Part shown: positions 107 through 5,669 of the stretch, piece by piece
Position numbering within the stretch: position 1 is the first letter of the stretch
How the letters are laid out: every line of letters starts with the position of its first letter
DNA from: a virus
Lineage: Duplodnaviria > Heunggongvirae > Uroviricota > Caudoviricetes
Strand: one strand, 5' to 3'
DNA: 5,669 bases
IMG/VR virus record: IMGVR_UViG_3300029253_000142
Made by a program: the position numbers and the translations under genes
The notes under the pieces: model-generated
Seen by the model: the letters and a program-made list of their open reading frames with translations, nothing else
Told to the model about the DNA's origin: nothing
Database searches by the model: none

Positions 107-340
107 GTGAGTACATCGGCTACCATTCTCGACATGTGCTGTGGCAGTCGCATGCTCTGGTTCGATAAGAATGACGAATGGTCGATATTTAGCGATATCA
201 GGAAAGAGGAACATTCGCTATGTGATGGACGTCACCCGATTATTAATCCCGACATTATAGCTGATTTTCGTGCGCTGCCGTGGTTGTCTGCTTTGCATCA
301 AAAGCAGACATTACCAGATTTAGACATCTGTTTCCGATAG
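107..340 (+). CDS. 77-aa hypothetical protein; N-terminus resembles a class I SAM-dependent methyltransferase fragment (possible remnant)
   Basis: GTG start at 107 is preceded by a strong SD (GGGAGG, 94-99). Residues ILDMCCGS resemble SAM-binding motif I (hhDxGCGxG) and [10 protein letters not shown] resembles the DAxxLPF motif of small-molecule methyltransferases. At 77 aa it is too short to be a complete methyltransferase fold. Confidence 0.45.
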
Positions 341-393
341 CCCGTTCTGATGCTACACTTTTTGCTATTTTCATGAACCTCATAAACACATTT

Positions 394-1059
394 ATGACTG
401 TTGCTGATTTCAAACGCCCCAAATTGGAGCTCCCAAACGGGGCAAAAAAACTATTACTGCACTCTTGCTGTGCTCCATGTTCCGGTGAAGTGATGGAGGC
501 GCTTCAGGCCTCGGGAATCGACTACACCATCTTTTTCTACAACCCGAACATTCATCCTCAGAAAGAGTATTTAATTCGTAAGGATGAGAATATTCGCTTT
601 GCTAAACAACACGGCGTGCCATTTATTGATGCTGATTACGACACAGACAACTGGTTTGAGCGAGCCAAAGGAATGGAATGGGAGCCTGAACGAGGGATCC
701 GTTGTACCATGTGTTTTGACATGCGTTTTGAGCGGACTGCGCTGTATGCCGCTGAAAATGGTTTCAGTGTGATCAGTAGCTCACTGGGCATTTCACGCTG
801 GAAAAATATGCAGCAGGTTAACGACTGTGGACGGCGAGCCGTCGCGTATTATCCGGGCATGGTGTACTGGGATTATAACTGGCGAAAGCAGGGCGGCTCT
901 TCCCGCATGATTGAAATCAGCAAGCGCGAACAATTCTATCAGCAGGAATATTGTGGCTGCGTGTATTCACTGCGCGATACCAATCTACACCGCAAATCTC
1001 AGGGACGCCCTCTAATCAAAATTGGTCAACTCCACTACGGTAAAGAAGGCCAGGAATGA
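394..1059 (+). CDS. queH: QueH-like epoxyqueuosine reductase homolog (DUF208 family)
   Basis: Long ORF with CCAPC (466-480), CTMC and CGC cysteine motifs, consistent with my recollection of the QueH/DUF208 family. Start is uncertain: ATG 394 is preferred, ATG 373 and the ORF-track start 280 are alternatives, and none has a clear SD. Stop is TGA 1057-1059. Confidence 0.75.
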
Positions 1060-1496: not shown

Positions 1497-1559
1497 GGCT
1501 GCGGGTGCTTGAGGCTATCTGCCTCGGGCATGAACACCAACGGCAGATAGAGAAAAGCC

Positions 1560-1625
1560 CCAGTTAACATTACGCGTCCTGCAAGACGCTTAACATTAAT
1601 CTGAGGCCAATTTCATGCTAGACAC
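1560..1625 (-). ncRNA. Candidate Sok-like antisense RNA covering the mok translation-initiation region
   Basis: By analogy with hok/sok loci, Sok is encoded antisense to the mok SD/start. A weak minus-strand promoter (TTGCCT, plus 1658-1653; TAACCT, plus 1635-1630) would start transcription near 1623. A hairpin GCGTC/GACGC (1574-1589) is flanked by a 9-bp direct repeat TTAACATTA. Boundaries are guesses. Confidence 0.2.
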
Positions 1626-1827
1626 ATGTAGGTTAGCCTCTTACGTGCCGAAAGGCAAGGAGAAGCAGGCTATGAAGCAGCAAAAGGCGATGTTAATCGC
1701 CCTGATCGTCATCTGTTTAACCGTCATAGTGACGGCACTGGTAACGAGGAAAGACCTCTGCGAGGTACGAATCCGAACCGGCCAGACGGAGGTCGCTGTC
1801 TTCACAGCTTACGAACCTGAGGAGTAA
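1615..1827 (+). CDS. mok-like reading frame (in-frame upstream extension of hok)
   Basis: ATG at 1615 with GAGG at 1603-1606 upstream; 70 codons in the same frame and with the same stop as hok, matching the Mok/Hok arrangement as I recall it from annotated chromosomal hok loci. Confidence 0.4.
   Translation: MLDTCRLASYVPKGKEKQAMKQQKAMLIALIVICLTVIVTALVTRKDLCEVRIRTGQTEVAVFTAYEPEE
1672..1827 (+). CDS. hokD: Hok/Gef-family type I toxin, 51 aa, matching HokD (RelF) as recalled
   Basis: Translation MKQQKAMLIALIVICLTVIVTALVTRKDLCEVRIRTGQTEVAVFTAYEPEE has a single transmembrane helix and the Hok signature, and matches my recollection of HokD/RelF. Strong SD AAGGAG (1656-1661) precedes ATG 1672; stop TAA at 1825-1827. 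Confidence 0.9.
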   Translation: MKQQKAMLIALIVICLTVIVTALVTRKDLCEVRIRTGQTEVAVFTAYEPEE

Positions 1828-1834
1828 GAGACCC

Positions 1835-1856
1835 GGCGAGGGAGAAATCCCTCGCC
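1835..1856 (+). promoter_or_regulatory. Perfect 9-bp stem with GAAA tetraloop in the hok 3' UTR
   Basis: GGCGAGGGA (1835-1843), GAAA loop, TCCCTCGCC (1848-1856), immediately after the hok stop codon. Plausibly part of the folded hok mRNA 3' region. Confidence 0.45.
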
Positions 1857-1895
1857 ACCTCTGATGTGGCAGGCATTCTCAACGCACCCGCACTT

Positions 1896-1926
1896 AACCC
1901 GCTTCGGCGGGTTTTTGTTTTTATTT
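1896..1926 (+). terminator. Rho-independent terminator of the hok transcript
   Basis: Stem CCCGC (1898-1902) / GCGGG (1907-1911) with TTCG loop, followed by TTTTTGTTTTTATTTT. Confidence 0.7.
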
Positions 1927-2641: not shown

Positions 2642-3691
2642 GTGCGGGTATTACTTCGACCTGTTCTGGTACCGGAGCTCGGGCTGGTGATCGTTAAGCC
2701 GGGCCGTGAATCCATGCCGGTATTCCACAATACCCGGGTACTGGTGGAGCCGGAACCGAAAAGCATGCGTAATCTGTCGTCCGGGGTCGTTCCTGCCGTT
2801 CGCCAGCCGCTGGCGGAGGATAAATCATTACTGCCATTTTTCAGCGACGAACGAGTGATTCGTGCTGCTGGTGGTGCTGGCGCATTGTCTGACTGGTTAC
2901 TGCGCCATGTTAAATCCTGCCAGTGGCCACACGGCGATTATCACCACAGTGAAACCGTCATTCACCGTTATGGTACCGGCGCAATGGTGTTGTGCTGGCA
3001 CTGCGACAACCAGCTGCGTGACCAGACATCCGAATCACTCGGGCAACTTGCTCATCAAAACCTGTCTGCATGGATGATTGACGTCATCGGTCACGCAATA
3101 AGCGGTACGCAGGAGCGTGAATTATCTCTGGCTGAATTATCCTGGTGGGCGGTCCGCAATCAGGTGGCGGACGCGCTACCGGAAGCGGTATTACGTCGTT
3201 CGCTGGGGTTGCGTGCGGAAAAAATCCGCTCAATGTACCGTGAAAGCGACATCGTACCGGGAGAGCAGACCGCCACCAGCATACTGAAACAGCGCACAAA
3301 AAATCTTGCGCCGCTGCCTCACGCCCACCAGCAACAGAACCCACCACAGGAAAAGGCGGTGGTCAGTATCGCCGTTGATCCGGAGTCTCCGGAATCTTTC
3401 ATGAAGCGGCCTAAACGTCGCCGTTGGGTAAATGAGAAATACAAACGCTGGGTAAAGACACAGCCGTGCGTGTGTTGTGGTAAGCCAGCCGACGATCCCC
3501 ATCACCTGATTGGTCATGGTCAGGGAGGTATGGGGACAAAAGCCCACGATATTTTCACGCTACCGCTGTGTCGGGAGCATCACAACGAGCTTCATGCGGA
3601 TCCGCTGGCGTTCGAAGAAAAGCATGGTTCTCAGGTTGATTTAATTTTTCGTTTTCTTGATCACGCCTTTGCAACTGGCGTGCTTGGGTAA
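2642..3691 (+). CDS. ydfU: YdfU-like DUF968 protein (349 aa) with Cys/His-rich, HNH/zinc-finger-like motifs
   Basis: GTG 2642 preceded by SD GGAGG (2633-2637). The C-terminus carries CVCCGKP...HH...CREHHNELH and an internal CQWPHGDYHH...CWHCDNQ cluster. Size and position upstream of Q match Qin-prophage YdfU. Confidence 0.8.
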   Translation: MRVLLRPVLVPELGLVIVKPGRESMPVFHNTRVLVEPEPKSMRNLSSGVVPAVRQPLAEDKSLLPFFSDERVIRAAGGAGALSDWLLRHVKSCQWPHGDYHHSETVIHRYGTGAMVLCWHCDNQLRDQTSESLGQLAHQNLSAWMIDVIGHAISGTQERELSLAELSWWAVRNQVADALPEAVLRRSLGLRAEKIRSMYRESDIVPGEQTATSILKQRTKNLAPLPHAHQQQNPPQEKAVVSIAVDPESPESFMKRPKRRRWVNEKYKRWVKTQPCVCCGKPADDPHHLIGHGQGGMGTKAHDIFTLPLCREHHNELHADPLAFEEKHGSQVDLIFRFLDHAFATGVLG

Positions 3692-3703: not shown

Positions 3704-4063
3704 ATGCTCATAGATTTGGTTTTACCTTACCCGCCGACGGTGAACACTTACTGGCGACGCCGTGGCAGCACATATTTTATCTCGGAGGAGGGAAAGCGTT
3801 ATCGCCGGGCTGTGGCGCTTATTGTTCGCCAGCAGCGGCTGAAATTAAGCCTGTCCGGAAGGCTGGTAATCAGGATTATTGCAGAGCCACCGGATAATCG
3901 CCGTCGCGACCTGGACAATATCCTGAAAGCGCCGCTGGATGCGCTGACGCATGCAGGACTGTTAATGGACGATGAGCAGTTTGATGAAATCAATATTGTA
4001 CGTGGCCAGCCAGTATCAGGTGGACGGCTGGAGATAAAAATTACAGAGGTGGGGTGTGCATGA
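3704..4063 (+). CDS. rusA: RusA-family crossover junction endodeoxyribonuclease (Holliday junction resolvase)
   Basis: 119 aa with the conserved RusA pattern (PDNRRRDLDN, LDAL, GGRLE near the C-terminus), closely paralleling E. coli RusA as I recall it. SD AAGAGGT (3692-3698) precedes ATG 3704. Confidence 0.9.
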   Translation: MLIDLVLPYPPTVNTYWRRRGSTYFISEEGKRYRRAVALIVRQQRLKLSLSGRLVIRIIAEPPDNRRRDLDNILKAPLDALTHAGLLMDDEQFDEINIVRGQPVSGGRLEIKITEVGCA

Positions 4064-4749
4064 ATAACCAGTATTTACAGTTTGTTCGTGAGCAACTCAT
4101 GATTGCCACAGCGGATCTCAGTGGGCCGACAAAAGGCCAGCTGGAAGCCTGGCAGGAAAATGCCCTGTTCGATACAGGGCGTTACAGACGCAAAAAAATT
4201 CGTTACCGCGATGAGGTAACCGGAAAAATGATCACGCGGGATAACCCACCGATCCCGGGTAAACAATCACTGGCGAAAGGCTCATCAATTGCGCTGGTCA
4301 GTCCGGTTGAGTTTGCAACATCATCGTGGCGGCGTGCCGTTCTGGAACTGGAAGAACATCAGAAGGCGTGGTTGTTGTGGTGTTATGGCGGAAACATTTG
4401 CTGGGAGCATCAGATCGCGATAACGCAGTGGGTGTGGAGTGAATTTAAAACTCAGTCCGGCTCCAGAAAAATTGCAGTGAAAACGCTGGAGCGTGTGAAG
4501 AAGTTGATCTGGCTGGCGGCACAGGATGTCAGAGGATGGGTTACCGGGTGTGAGGTCTACCAGAGACAGGAGCTTGCCAGACTGTGTGGAGTTAAGCCTG
4601 ATAACTGGAGCCATAATTATGCGAACTACTGGCGTGAGATGTGCGATATTTTTAAGCGCCTCGATAGAGAATCCTTGATTTGCTCCGTGAAAATAAGAGC
4701 GCAACAAAAAGCGACCTTTTCACGACGAGATATTGCAAAAGTCAATTAA
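4060..4749 (+). CDS. Putative late-gene antitermination protein Q (QuuQ/YdfT-like)
   Basis: 229-aa ORF whose ATG (4060) overlaps the rusA stop (ATGA), with SD GAGGT at 4046-4050. It sits directly downstream of rusA/ydfU, where lambdoid phages carry Q, and is followed by promoter-like elements and an intrinsic terminator. The assignment is mainly positional; I do not recognise the Q fold from sequence. Confidence 0.55.
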   Translation: MNNQYLQFVREQLMIATADLSGPTKGQLEAWQENALFDTGRYRRKKIRYRDEVTGKMITRDNPPIPGKQSLAKGSSIALVSPVEFATSSWRRAVLELEEHQKAWLLWCYGGNICWEHQIAITQWVWSEFKTQSGSRKIAVKTLERVKKLIWLAAQDVRGWVTGCEVYQRQELARLCGVKPDNWSHNYANYWREMCDIFKRLDRESLICSVKIRAQQKATFSRRDIAKVN

Positions 4750-4761
4750 ATCGCGTATGTT
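4733..4761 (+). promoter_or_regulatory. Candidate late promoter (PR'-like, TTGCAA-N17-TATGTT) overlapping the Q stop codon, with -10-like repeats downstream
   Basis: -35 TTGCAA at 4733-4738, 17-bp spacer, -10 TATGTT at 4756-4761. -10-like elements TATAAA (4765-4770) and GATATT (4774-4779) fall in the predicted early transcribed region, reminiscent of sigma-dependent pause elements at qut sites. Not validated. Confidence 0.25.
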
Positions 4762-4810
4762 TCGTATAAATCTGATATTTTGCCGATTTTGTACGTGATG
4801 GCAAAGTAAG

Positions 4811-4839
4811 AAAAAACCACCGCCAGGTGGTTTTTTTTA
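4811..4839 (+). terminator. Rho-independent terminator after Q (possible tR'), A-tract/T-tract flanked
   Basis: AAAAAA, stem CCACC (4817-4821) / GGTGG (4826-4830) with GCCA loop, then TTTTTTTT (4831-4838). The symmetric A/T flanks mean it could terminate in both directions. Confidence 0.7.
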
Positions 4840-4961
4840 TGTCCGAAAATCGCGTCAGTACAGTAAATGCGCTGGTGGCGGTGAATACCTGTCTTTCAGC
4901 TTGCTGGCTTTTTCGACAAGAGTTATTGGTGTGTCACGTTAACCGGAAAAGGGAAAAAGAC

Positions 4962-5159
4962 ATGCTAAAACAGCAGGATATGACAGAAACCGCCAGAGTA
5001 GTGTTTAATGAATTAAGCGTTACCGAACCGGCGACAGTCGGGGAGATTGCACAGAATACTTACCTTTCACGCGAACGCTGCCAGTTAATACTGACCCAGC
5101 TGGTTATGGCGGGTCTGGCAGACTATCAGTTCGGTTGTTACAGACGCCTTCCGCAGTGA
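4962..5159 (+). CDS. Small hypothetical protein (about 66 aa) of unknown function
   Basis: ATG 4962 is preceded by AAGGGA (about 4948-4953). The sequence MLKQQDMTETARVVFNELSVTEPATVGEIAQNTYLSRERCQLILTQLVMAGLADY has the feel of a helix-turn-helix or winged-helix regulator, but this is only an impression. The in-frame ATG 4839 is an alternative start but lies in the terminator T-tract with no SD. Confidence 0.5.
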   Translation: MLKQQDMTETARVVFNELSVTEPATVGEIAQNTYLSRERCQLILTQLVMAGLADYQFGCYRRLPQ

Positions 5160-5172
5160 AGGCTTTTTTATT
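5146..5172 (+). terminator. Rho-independent terminator at the end of the small ORF
   Basis: Stem GCCTTC (5146-5151) / GAAGGC (5158-5163), 6-nt loop containing the stop codon, followed by TTTTTTATTT. Confidence 0.6.
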
Positions 5173-5309: not shown

Positions 5310-5669
5310 ATGCTTAATACTGTAAAAATATCCAGTTGTGAGTTAATCAACGCCGACTGCCTGGAATTTATCCGGTCGTTACCCGAAAATTCTGTTGACC
5401 TGATAGTCACGGACCCGCCGTACTTTAAAGTGAAGCCTGAGGGCTGGGATAACCAGTGGAAGGGCGACGATGATTACCTGAAGTGGCTGGACCAGTGTCT
5501 GGCGCAGTTCTGGCGGGTGCTGAAACCTGCCGGAAGTCTTTACCTGTTCTGTGGTCATCGCCTGGCATCTGATATCGAAATCATGATGCGTGAACGCTTC
5601 AGTGTGCTGAACCATATTATCTGGGCGAAGCCGTCCGGACGCTGGAACGGATGCAACAAGGAAAGCCTG
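5310..5669 (+). CDS. DNA N6-adenine methyltransferase, beta-class, YhdJ-like (5' partial; runs off window end)
   Basis: Translation MLNTVKISSCELINADCLEFIRSLPENSVDLIVTDPPYF... carries the DPPY catalytic motif preceded by a region resembling the N-terminus of E. coli YhdJ (VDLIFADPPYN). In-frame stops at 5301-5306 fix ATG 5310 as the first possible start; the SD is weak. The frame is open to the last base of the window. Confidence 0.85.
   Translation, partial: MLNTVKISSCELINADCLEFIRSLPENSVDLIVTDPPYFKVKPEGWDNQWKGDDDYLKWLDQCLAQFWRVLKPAGSLYLFCGHRLASDIEIMMRERFSVLNHIIWAKPSGRWNGCNKESL

What the first reader, a model, noticed from the sequence alone, without database searches (positions are those of the whole stretch)
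4733..4839. Candidate late promoter/qut region and a short tR'-like terminator right after Q
About 60 bp after the putative Q stop lies a strong intrinsic terminator. Promoter-like elements (TTGCAA-N17-TATGTT) overlap the end of Q, with -10-like repeats in the early transcribed region. This resembles a PR'-qut-tR' unit producing a short, roughly 70-nt, terminated RNA unless Q modifies the polymerase. If so, the small ORF and methyltransferase downstream are Q-dependent late-operon cargo.
Basis: inference. Interest (0 to 1): 0.4.

Follow-up and report, generated by a model that had tools for sequence, protein, structure and literature searches.

The report
Phage-82-type late promoter and terminator
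Right after the prophage's Q antiterminator gene sits an ordinary phage-82-type late-gene switch: a promoter, a built-in RNA polymerase pause site where Q loads, and a terminator that cuts off a ~71-nt RNA unless Q is present.

Summary
No experiment was possible.

The gene at 4060-4749 is a Q82-family antiterminator (Pfam PF06323, 282 bits; 67% identical to phage 82 Q). With TTGCAA (4733-38), N17, TATGTT (4756-61) as promoter, the start falls at A4768. In that register every published positional feature of the phage 82 pR' pause signal is present:
- extended -10-like TGaTATTTT at +6..+14
- GCC at +15-17
- an AT-rich +18-25
- U at +25

An intrinsic terminator (4811-4838) follows, predicting a ~71-nt RNA.

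The same layout is present in all 92 Q82-family loci examined that show it (Q identity 33-98%; E. coli, Klebsiella, Enterobacter, Cronobacter, Morganella). The terminator hairpins differ in sequence, yet a terminator is almost always present. The layout occurs once in the window and in 0 of 200 shuffles. The module is found in 1112 of 5426 complete E. coli genomes.

Downstream, in the nearest genome, lie a small wHTH ORF, a methyltransferase, tRNAs and the lysis genes, all on one strand. This is a known kind of element and of low interest. The only open point is whether the short RNA, whose 5' hairpin is partly conserved, also acts as an sRNA.

The parts
4060..4749 (+). Q antiterminator gene, Q82 family. 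The mechanical ORF call starts at GTG 4054; RefSeq relatives start at ATG 4060.
   Evidence: Pfam PF06323, 282 bits, E 4.6e-84. 66.8% aa identity to phage 82 Q and 63.5% to phage 434 Q. PF06323 is the Q82 family (PMC9388147). RefSeq annotation of the 98%-identical locus.
4733..4738 (+). PR' -35 hexamer TTGCAA, inside the last codons of Q
   Evidence: Present in 34 of 35 unique variants (TTGAAA in phiES15). Phage Flotzy keeps it although it lies outside the Q ORF there, so its conservation is not a coding effect.
4739..4755 (+). 17-bp spacer with the Q stop codon; candidate location of the Q-binding element (inferred)
   Evidence: For 82 pR', the -31..+30 segment carries the QBE plus the pause element (PMC4914094). 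ATTAAA at -23..-18 is nearly invariant, but this is confounded by the stop codon. The QBE itself was not identified.
4756..4761 (+). PR' -10 hexamer TATGTT
   Evidence: A at -11 and T at -7 are present in all loci. Positions -10 and -9 vary (TATGTT, TACATT, TATATT, CATATT).
4768..4768 (+). Predicted transcription start (A, +1)
   Evidence: It is the 7th base after the -10 hexamer. This register places GCC at +15-17 and T at +25, as published for 82 pR'. Inferred, not mapped.
4773..4781 (+). Sigma70-dependent pause element: extended -10-like TGaTATTTT (+6..+14)
   Evidence: TG, TAT and the final T are invariant in 35 of 35 unique variants. It matches the description of 82 pR': a -10-like element with an extended -10, ending at +14.
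4782..4784 (+). Discriminator-like GCC (+15..+17)
   Evidence: PMC5001585 reports that 82 pR' +15-17 GCC is required for the pause. GCC is present in about 30 of 35 variants, CGC in the Enterobacter clade.
4785..4793 (+). AT-rich segment GATTTTGT(A), with predicted pause sites at +25 (T4792) and +26 (A4793)
   Evidence: 82 pR' pauses at +25/+26 with a natural U at +25 and an AT-rich +18-25. T at +25 is present in 32 of 35 variants.
4776..4808 (+). RNA hairpin 1 (UAUUUUGCC ... GGCAAAGUA); the 5' arm overlaps the pause element
   Evidence: -9.5 kcal/mol. Arm complementarity beats shuffles in the E. coli clade (p about 0.004) and in the Klebsiella clade, which has different arm sequences (p about 0.0005). 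It is weak or absent in other clades and missing in the 434, L048 and phiES15 types.
4811..4838 (+). Intrinsic terminator tR': AAAAAACCACC-GCCA-GGTGGTTTTTT plus a U-run of 8
   Evidence: 45 of 47 unique relatives have a terminator 52-98 nt from the predicted start, with unrelated hairpin sequences. The equivalent hairpin is annotated as a terminator in phage 434.
4768..4838 (+). Predicted short PR' transcript, about 70-71 nt
   Evidence: -26.3 kcal/mol with two hairpins. No Rfam family reaches its gathering score. Short late-promoter RNAs are documented for lambda, 21, phi80, 82 and P22 (PMC7547250).
4962..5159 (+). Small winged-helix ORF (65 aa), the first late-operon cargo gene
   Evidence: Weak TrmB match (18 bits, below cutoff). 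RefSeq annotates it as a hypothetical protein or a TrmB family regulator. It is shared with Stx2 phages that carry other Q types.
5146..5170 (+). Second intrinsic terminator, at the stop of the small ORF
   Evidence: GCCTTCCGCAGTGAAGGC followed by TTTTTTATTT; -7.5 kcal/mol.
5310..5669 (+). N6/N4 DNA methyltransferase gene, cut by the window end
   Evidence: PF01555, 61.6 bits. In the nearest genome it is followed by tRNA-Ile/Arg/Arg, an esterase, holin, lysozyme and Rz1 on the same strand.

Best explanation
Positions 4733-4838 are the late-gene control unit (PR'-qut-tR') of a lambdoid prophage whose antiterminator belongs to the phage 82 family.

Proposed mechanism, by homology with phage 82:
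1. Host sigma70 RNA polymerase starts constitutively at about A4768 from TTGCAA-N17-TATGTT.
2. Sigma70 re-binds the extended -10-like TGATATTTT at +6..+14.
3. Together with GCC (+15-17) and the AT-rich stretch, this holds the polymerase paused at about +25/+26 (4792/4793).
4. Without Q, the polymerase escapes and terminates at the hairpin and U8 (4811-4838), releasing a ~71-nt RNA.
5. When Q is made from the early operon, it binds DNA in the promoter region, loads onto the paused complex (helped by NusA) and makes it terminator-resistant.
6. Transcription then runs through tR' and the second terminator at 5146-5170 into the small ORF, the methyltransferase, the tRNAs and the lysis and morphogenesis genes.

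Shown here: gene family, sequence architecture, conservation, and the fold and terminator features. Inferred: start site, pause, Q loading, and Q-dependence of the cargo.
For: - Q is PF06323 (282 bits), 67% identical to phage 82 Q. PF06323 is the Q82 family.
- In the register set by the -10 hexamer, the window has the extended -10-like element at +6..+14, GCC at +15-17, an AT-rich +18-25 and U at +25. These are the features reported for 82 pR'.
- The composite pattern occurs once in the window and in 0 of 200 shuffles.
- 90 of 90 loci with sequence after a Q82-type gene (Q identity 48-98%) carry the same layout. So do Morganella IME1369_02 (39%) and phage Flotzy (33%); in Flotzy the -35 lies outside the Q ORF.
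- 45 of 47 unique variants have an intrinsic terminator 52-98 nt from the predicted start. The hairpin sequences differ, so the structure and position are conserved rather than the sequence.
- The last 30 nt of phage 82 Q are identical to those of loci L079/L080, whose downstream region is window-like.
- Similarity to Stx2 phages with other Q types starts at the terminator (window 4813). Q and PR' therefore travel as one cassette, and the terminator plus cargo as another.
- In the nearest genome the cargo is followed by the lysis genes on the same strand.
- No promoter-like site was scored between 4840 and 5310 on the + strand.
Against: - There are no transcript data, so the start site, pause and Q-dependence are inferred.
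- The promoter hexamers match the consensus at only 8 of 12 positions and fell below the generic scan's threshold.
- The actual 82 pR' sequence could not be retrieved: X92588 ends at the Q stop and no paper text holds it. The match is therefore to published positional descriptions, not to the sequence.
- The Q-binding element was not identified.
- The prophage may be defective, so the unit could be intact in sequence but idle.
Confidence: 0.87

Rival explanations
1. The ~71-nt terminated RNA is not just a by-product. In the lysogen it would act as a trans-acting, probably Hfq-binding, small RNA, as StxS does in Stx phages. This adds to the antitermination role rather than excluding it.
For: - StxS is a PR'-tR' transcript with sRNA function. 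Its authors propose that antiterminated phage promoters are a source of sRNAs (PMC7547250).
- The RNA has an sRNA-like build: a 5' hairpin, the A-rich AAGAAAAAA stretch, then a terminator with U8.
- The 3' arm of hairpin 1 lies beyond +30, outside the segment sufficient for Q action in phage 82. It is nevertheless complementary to the 5' arm in two clades with different arm sequences.
- The module is present in 1112 of 5426 complete E. coli genomes.
Against: - There are no expression, Hfq-binding or target data.
- Hairpin 1 is weak or absent in several clades, and in the 434, L048 and phiES15 types the terminator follows the pause site directly.
- RNAalifold found no consensus structure on the MAFFT alignment.
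- No Rfam family reaches its threshold.
- Conservation of +27..+43 could simply reflect recent exchange of the cassette.
Confidence: 0.25
2. The hairpin is only the terminator ending the early (nin/Q) operon, and the promoter-like hexamers and -10-like repeats are chance AT-rich matches. No transcript would start here.
For: The hexamers match the consensus at 8 of 12 positions and were not picked up by the scan, which found as many promoter-like sites as in shuffles (7 versus 7.0). The terminator would also stop unmodified transcripts coming from upstream.
Against: - The composite pattern was found in 0 of 200 shuffles.
- The layout and spacing are invariant in all Q82-family loci down to 33% Q identity across five genera.
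- The positions agree with the experimentally defined 82 pR' pause signal.
- In Flotzy the -35 is conserved outside coding sequence.
Confidence: 0.04
3. The element acts mainly on the minus strand. The symmetric A6/T8 hairpin would terminate, and TTGCCA-N16-CAAAAT (4804-4777) would start, an antisense RNA running into Q, like lambda paQ RNA.
For: - The scan lists a minus-strand promoter-like site (9 of 12) and an 11-bp minus-strand terminator.
- The phage 434 record annotates a CII site and a paQ -35 on the minus strand at the end of Q.
- There is a weak minus-strand Rfam hit to STnc370 (30 bits against a gathering score of 54).
Against: - The minus-strand hexamers are the reverse complement of the conserved pause element and hairpin arm, so they are expected by-products.
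- The CII-type repeat is degenerate in the window (TTGC-N6-TCGT).
- Every gene in the window with a Pfam match, and every annotated gene from Q through the lysis genes in the nearest genome apart from two pseudogene fragments, is on the + strand, so there is nothing convergent to terminate.
- The Rfam hit is far below threshold and driven by the terminator.
Confidence: 0.03

Closest known systems
Phage 82 late promoter unit (82 pR' with QBE, sigma70-dependent pause at +25, downstream terminator) acted on by Q82
   Same: - Q is from the same Pfam family (PF06323) and 67% identical.
- The promoter lies at the end of Q.
- The extended -10-like pause element ends at +14, with GCC at +15-17, an AT-rich +18-25 and U at +25.
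- A short terminated RNA is produced.

   Different: - The Q protein differs in a third of its residues, and the spacer (candidate QBE) differs from the 82/434-type spacer (AAGTCAATTAAATCGCG against AACTGGATTAAAAAGCA in the 82-like loci L079/L080).
- The -10 hexamer is TATGTT rather than the TATATT seen in the 82-like loci.
- The 82 pR' sequence itself was not available for a base-by-base comparison.
Lambda PR'-qut-tR' and its 6S RNA (Q-lambda, PF03589)
   Same: Same logic: a constitutive promoter after Q, a -10-like element in the initial transcribed region causing a sigma70-dependent pause, Q loading, an intrinsic terminator and a short RNA in lysogens.
   Different: - The Q family is unrelated.
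- The lambda pause element is AACGAT at +1..+6 with GGG at +7-9 and pauses at +16/17.
- From my own knowledge, lambda 6S RNA is about 194 nt, against about 71 nt here.
StxS, the sRNA made by termination of the Stx-phage PR' transcript at tR' (PMC7547250)
   Same: It is a short RNA made from the antiterminated late promoter directly after Q. The downstream cargo layout is of the Stx-phage type: methyltransferase, tRNA-Ile/Arg/Arg, esterase, lysis genes.
   Different: - StxS goes with a 144-aa Q of another clade and is processed by RNase E to 74 nt.
- No sequence relation to the window RNA was found, and there is no Rfam hit.
- sRNA function is untested here.
IsrK of Salmonella Gifsy-1 (Rfam RF01394)
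   Same: It lies directly downstream of a Q82-family gene (Gifsy-1 Q is 62% identical over residues 2-220). [quoted passage not shown]
   Different: It is not homologous. The window scores 19.4 bits against a gathering score of 50. The Gifsy-1 region lacks the TTGCAA...TGATAT layout and is instead a P1-type c4/a1b1 antirepressor leader.
Phage 21-type PR' units (Q21 family, PF06530), for example in Sakai prophage Sp10
   Same: The position after Q and a terminator about 100 nt downstream, before tRNA genes.
   Different: The Q family is different (DUF1133/PF06530) and the cis sequence is unrelated. Whether the sRNA HnrS of Sp9/10/12 (PMC13502914) comes from that PR' was not established.

Membership tests
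Phage-82-type PR'-qut-tR' late control unit | A Q82-family (PF06323) antiterminator gene immediately upstream | tested here: met
   PF06323, 282 bits, full-length match. 66.8% identity to phage 82 Q. Family assignment from PMC9388147.
Phage-82-type PR'-qut-tR' late control unit | A sigma70 promoter at or just after the 3' end of Q | tested here: inconclusive
   TTGCAA-N17-TATGTT is present and conserved in all relatives. It matches the consensus at only 8 of 12 positions, and promoter activity cannot be tested with these tools.
Phage-82-type PR'-qut-tR' late control unit | An extended -10-like pause element ending at +14, a GC-rich discriminator at +15-17, an AT-rich +18-25 and U at +25 | tested here: met
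   TGaTATTTT at 4773-4781, GCC at 4782-4784, GATTTTGT at 4785-4792 and T at 4792, in the register set by the -10 hexamer. These match PMC5001585. The core bases are invariant in 35 unique variants.
Phage-82-type PR'-qut-tR' late control unit | A Q-binding element in the promoter region (within -31..+30 for phage 82) | tested here: inconclusive
   The spacer has conserved ATTAAA and GC positions, but they overlap the Q stop codon. The 82 QBE sequence could not be obtained.
Phage-82-type PR'-qut-tR' late control unit | An intrinsic terminator shortly downstream, giving a short RNA | tested here: met
   An 11-bp stem plus U8 at 4811-4838. A terminator is present in 45 of 47 unique relatives at 52-98 nt. 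The equivalent hairpin is annotated as a terminator in phage 434.
Phage-82-type PR'-qut-tR' late control unit | Late (lysis and morphogenesis) genes downstream on the same strand | tested here: met
   A 98%-identical genome has Q, small ORF, methyltransferase, 3 tRNAs, esterase, holin, lysozyme and Rz1, all on the + strand. The window itself ends in the methyltransferase.
Phage-82-type PR'-qut-tR' late control unit | A sigma70-dependent pause and Q-dependent terminator readthrough | not testable with these tools
   This needs in vitro transcription with and without Q and NusA, or in vivo reporters.
PR'-derived regulatory sRNA (StxS-like) | A stable short transcript in lysogens that binds Hfq and base-pairs with targets | not testable with these tools
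   Only the sequence build could be seen: a 5' hairpin, an A-rich stretch and a terminator with U8.
PR'-derived regulatory sRNA (StxS-like) | Sequence or structure membership in a described RNA family | tested here: not met
   No Rfam 15 family reaches its gathering score over 4720-4860. The best + strand hits are Phe_leader at 28 bits (gathering 55) and isrK at 19 bits (gathering 50), both driven by the terminator.
IsrK (RF01394) | A match to the covariance model at the gathering score, and homology of the locus | tested here: not met
   19.4 bits against 50. The genuine IsrK in Gifsy-1 scores 79 bits and its locus has a different sequence and context.

The most novel reading that the evidence does not exclude
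The ~71-nt RNA released at tR' may be a widespread prophage-encoded, Hfq-type regulatory sRNA, present in about a fifth of complete E. coli genomes. Its 5' hairpin, which covaries between the E. coli and Klebsiella clades and is not needed for Q action, would be kept for RNA stability or function. That would make 82-type late promoters a second StxS-like source of host-regulating sRNAs.
Probability: 0.25. Interest if true: 0.45.

Novelty: already known. Interest (0 to 1): 0.13.

Why it matters
The result mainly helps annotation. It marks the true start of the late operon in a very common class of E. coli prophages. It also shows that the small ORF, the methyltransferase, the tRNAs and, in Stx phages with this cargo module, the toxin genes sit behind one or two terminators that need Q to be read through.

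The cross-genus consensus found here is TTGCAA-N17-nAnnnT-N11-TGATATnnT-GCC followed by a terminator. It could be used to annotate 82-type PR' units automatically, and it gives natural sequence variation for the one Q family that still has no solved structure. Nothing here changes the current understanding of Q antitermination.

Tried and rejected
- **Rfam.** Nothing reached a gathering score. The weak isrK, Phe_leader, RNAI, OrzO-P and STnc370 hits are driven by the terminator.
- **IsrK homology.** Rejected after reading the Gifsy-1 locus. Its post-Q region is a c4/a1b1 antirepressor leader with no TTGCAA...TGATAT layout.
- **HnrS (EcOnc10-12; PMC13502914).** I checked whether it could be this RNA. 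Sakai Sp10 carries a DUF1133/PF06530 Q with an unrelated downstream sequence, so it is not homologous. The HnrS sequence itself was not available.
- **K-12 Qin quuQ.** It is not related to this Q (BLASTP E 0.54), and its downstream region carries AACGATGGG, which I recognise from memory as the lambda-type pause element. It gives no transferable transcript data.
- **Retrieving the 82 pR' sequence.** GenBank X92588 stops at the Q stop codon. String searches of the paper library found nothing relevant. Supplements of PMC4914094 and PMC5001585 are not held, and PMC3058920 is not held.
- **RNAalifold on +1..+46 of 21 variants.** It gave no consensus structure because the 3' arms are out of register between clades. 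I replaced it with a per-clade arm-complementarity shuffle test, which gave mixed results.
- **PDB sequence search with Q.** No solved relative was found.
- **TATAAA (4765-4770) as an alternative -10.** Rejected: there is no -35 at 16-18 bp, and it is not conserved (GTAAA or GCAAA in relatives).
- **A longer ORF from ATG 4839.** Rejected: the frame is interrupted in Stx2_EH2201, and phiP27 has no ATG there.

Full report
**Context**

The window is the early-right/late junction of an E. coli lambdoid prophage. Reading left to right on the + strand it holds:
- a QueH homologue (280-1059)
- a sok/hok module (sok RNA 1503-1677, 115 bits; hok ORF to 1827)
- a DUF968/HNH protein (2642-3691)
- RusA (3704-4063)
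- a 229-231-aa protein (4054/4060-4749)
- a 65-aa winged-helix ORF (4962-5159)
- the 5' part of an N6/N4 DNA methyltransferase (5310 to the window end)

The 4054-4749 protein matches Pfam PF06323 end to end (282 bits). It is 66.8% identical to the Q protein of phage 82 and 63.5% identical to that of phage 434. PF06323 is the Q82 family, one of three unrelated Q families (PMC9388147). No solved structure exists for a relative.

**The observation**

- The sequence reads TTGCAA (4733-38), a 17-bp spacer containing the Q stop codon, then TATGTT (4756-61).
- An intrinsic terminator lies at 4811-4838. It has a CCACC/GGTGG core extended by A6/U6 to 11 bp (-13.8 kcal/mol), followed by eight T. It starts 61 nt after the Q stop.
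- The two hexamers match the sigma70 consensus at only 8 of 12 positions. The generic scan did not list them, and it found no more promoter-like sites in the window than in shuffles. The promoter call therefore cannot rest on the hexamers.

**What makes it more than chance**

Published work on phage 82 pR' gives position-specific features (PMC5001585):
- a -10-like pause-inducing element that is closer to TATAAT than lambda's and carries an extended -10
- insertions at +9 move the whole signal, while insertions at +15 separate the -10-like element from a discriminator-like GCC at +15-17
- an AT-rich +18-25
- pausing at +25 (natural U) and +26

Suppose TATGTT is the -10 hexamer and the start is the seventh base after it (A4768). 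The window then has TG at +6/+7, TATTTT at +9..+14, GCC at +15-17, GATTTTGT at +18-25 and T at +25. Every feature falls in register. The composite pattern TTGNAA-N17-NANNNT-N11-TGRTATNNTSSC occurs once in the window and in none of 200 dinucleotide-preserving shuffles.

**Comparative evidence**

I collected 80 viral contigs encoding relatives of this Q (67-98% identity). To these I added phage 434 and nine Klebsiella, Enterobacter, Cronobacter and E. coli phages (48-65% identity).

- Every locus with sequence after Q (90 of 90) carries the same layout with the same spacings.
- Across 35 unique -60..+30 variants, these are invariant or nearly so: the -35, A-11, T-7, T-6, the TG, the TAT and final T of the pause element, GCC, and T+25. 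Flanking positions vary.
- The layout persists in Morganella phage IME1369_02 (39% Q identity) and E. coli phage Flotzy (33%).
- In Flotzy the whole unit lies about 35 bp after the Q stop. Conservation of TTGCAA is therefore not a side effect of coding for the Q C-terminus.
- PY54 and N15 (23-31% identity) lack the layout.
- 45 of 47 unique variants have an intrinsic terminator 52-98 nt from the predicted start. The hairpins are unrelated in sequence (CCACCGCCAGGTGG, CTGCCGTCAGGCGG, CCCGCCGATAAGCGGG, AAGCCCGAGG...CCTTGGGCTT and others), which is what selection for function rather than sequence predicts.
- The phage 434 record annotates the equivalent hairpin as a terminator.
- The last 30 nt of phage 82 Q are identical to those of loci L079/L080, whose downstream sequence is window-like from +1 to +43.

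**Modularity and cargo**

Megablast against phage genomes shows that similarity to Stx2-converting phages begins at window 4813, that is, at the terminator. Those phages (Stx2_EH2201, phiP27) have a different gene and a different sequence upstream. In Stx2_EH2201 it is a 126-aa Q of another type. They then carry a terminator of the same kind and the same small ORF, methyltransferase and tRNAs. Q plus PR'/qut is therefore one exchangeable cassette, and the terminator plus cargo is another.

In the closest complete genome (98% identical) the order is: Q, small ORF, methyltransferase, tRNA-Ile/Arg/Arg, SASA esterase, holin, lysozyme, Rz1, all on one strand. No promoter-like site was scored on the + strand between 4840 and 5310, and a second terminator sits at 5146-5170. 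It does not prove it.

**Mechanism**

By homology with phage 82:
1. Sigma70 holoenzyme starts at about 4768.
2. [quoted passage not shown]
3. Q bound to promoter-region DNA loads onto the paused complex, with NusA.
4. The modified polymerase reads through tR'.
5. Without Q, a ~71-nt RNA is released.

Short late-promoter RNAs of this kind are documented for lambda, 21, phi80, 82 and P22 (PMC7547250). The Q-binding element could not be pinned down. For phage 82 it lies within -31..+30 (PMC4914094). The spacer here has conserved positions, but they overlap the stop codon.

**The short RNA**

The predicted transcript folds into two hairpins (-26 to -27 kcal/mol, z = -5.5). In hairpin 1 (4776-4808) the 5' arm is the pause element plus GCC, and the 3' arm lies beyond +30.

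- Arm complementarity exceeds shuffles in the main E. coli clade (p about 0.004).
- It also does so in a Klebsiella clade with different arms, AUGCUGCC/GGCGGCAU (p about 0.0005).
- It is marginal or absent elsewhere, and the hairpin is missing in the 434, L048 and phiES15 types, where the terminator follows the pause site directly.
- RNAalifold gave no consensus structure.

The hairpin is thus frequent but dispensable for Q action. It may stabilise the RNA or serve an sRNA role like that of StxS. This is the only non-routine possibility, and it is untested.

**Things checked and set aside**

- No Rfam family reaches its threshold.
- The weak isrK hit is not homology, because the Gifsy-1 IsrK locus is a different kind of sequence.
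- HnrS of Sakai Sp9/10/12 sits in prophages with another Q type.
- K-12 QuuQ is unrelated to this Q.

**Prevalence and verdict**

The 115-bp module is found in 1112 of 5426 complete E. coli genomes, and 136 records carry it at 99% identity or more. This is a standard phage-82-type PR'-qut-tR' unit. Novelty is nil and interest is low.

Noticed in passing
window 280-1059 (+): A QueH-type epoxyqueuosine reductase homologue (PF02677, 219 bits) sits in the early region of this prophage. From memory, E. coli itself uses QueG, so this is unusual cargo. The closest complete genome has different genes at this position.
   Followed up: no
window 1503-1917 (+): A complete sok/hok type I toxin-antitoxin module: sok RNA at 115 bits (Rfam) and a Hok ORF ending at 1827. 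It is followed by a terminator at 1896-1913, which gives a sub-threshold isrK-like hit (26.6 bits against 50). That hit is probably just the 3' end of the hok mRNA.
   Followed up: no
window 5146-5170 (+): A second intrinsic terminator (GCCTTCCGCAGTGAAGGC plus T6) lies exactly at the stop of the small winged-helix ORF and before the methyltransferase. Two terminators therefore separate PR' from the methyltransferase.
   Followed up: partly
window 4813 onward; L096 1000-1160; L097 950-1110: There is a mosaic joint at the terminator. Stx2 phages with other sequences upstream (a 126-aa Q of another type in Stx2_EH2201) share the terminator-plus-cargo segment (small ORF, methyltransferase, tRNAs) at 92-96% identity, but not the Q/PR' cassette.
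   Followed up: yes
window 4839-5159 (+): An ATG directly after the terminator T-run is in frame with the small ORF and would give 106 aa. The frame has a stop in Stx2_EH2201, and phiP27 has no ATG there, so this is probably not coding.
   Followed up: partly
window 4725-4738 and 4777-4804 (- strand); L001 2169-2182: Phages 82 and 434 have a TTGC-N6-TTGC CII-type site on the minus strand overlapping the PR' -35. It is annotated as paQ in the 434 record. The window has TTGC-N6-TCGT, one mismatch. A minus-strand promoter-like TTGCCA-N16-CAAAAT lies within hairpin 1.
   Followed up: partly
L098 (Morganella phage IME1369_02) about 1195-1297: A homologue of the small ORF (it starts MLKQKDMTT..., against MLKQQDMTE... 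here) also follows the 82-type PR'/terminator in a Morganella phage whose Q is only 39% identical. The small winged-helix gene may therefore be a long-standing first gene of this late operon.
   Followed up: no
L095 4360-4480 (- strand; E. coli K-12 Qin prophage): Downstream of quuQ, K-12 Qin carries AACGATGGG, which I recognise from memory as the lambda-type pause element, followed by a short terminator (AAACCCGCTGATGAGCGGGTTTT). This looks like a lambda-type PR'-tR' remnant in the cryptic prophage.
   Followed up: no
L085 15565-15705 (Sakai prophage Sp10): Between the DUF1133/PF06530-type antiterminator ECs_1958 and tRNA ileZ4 lies a terminator (GAACCCGCCATTGAGCGGGTTTTTT). This is a plausible place for the 66-nt sRNA HnrS described for Sp9/10/12, which would make HnrS another PR'-derived RNA.
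   Followed up: partly
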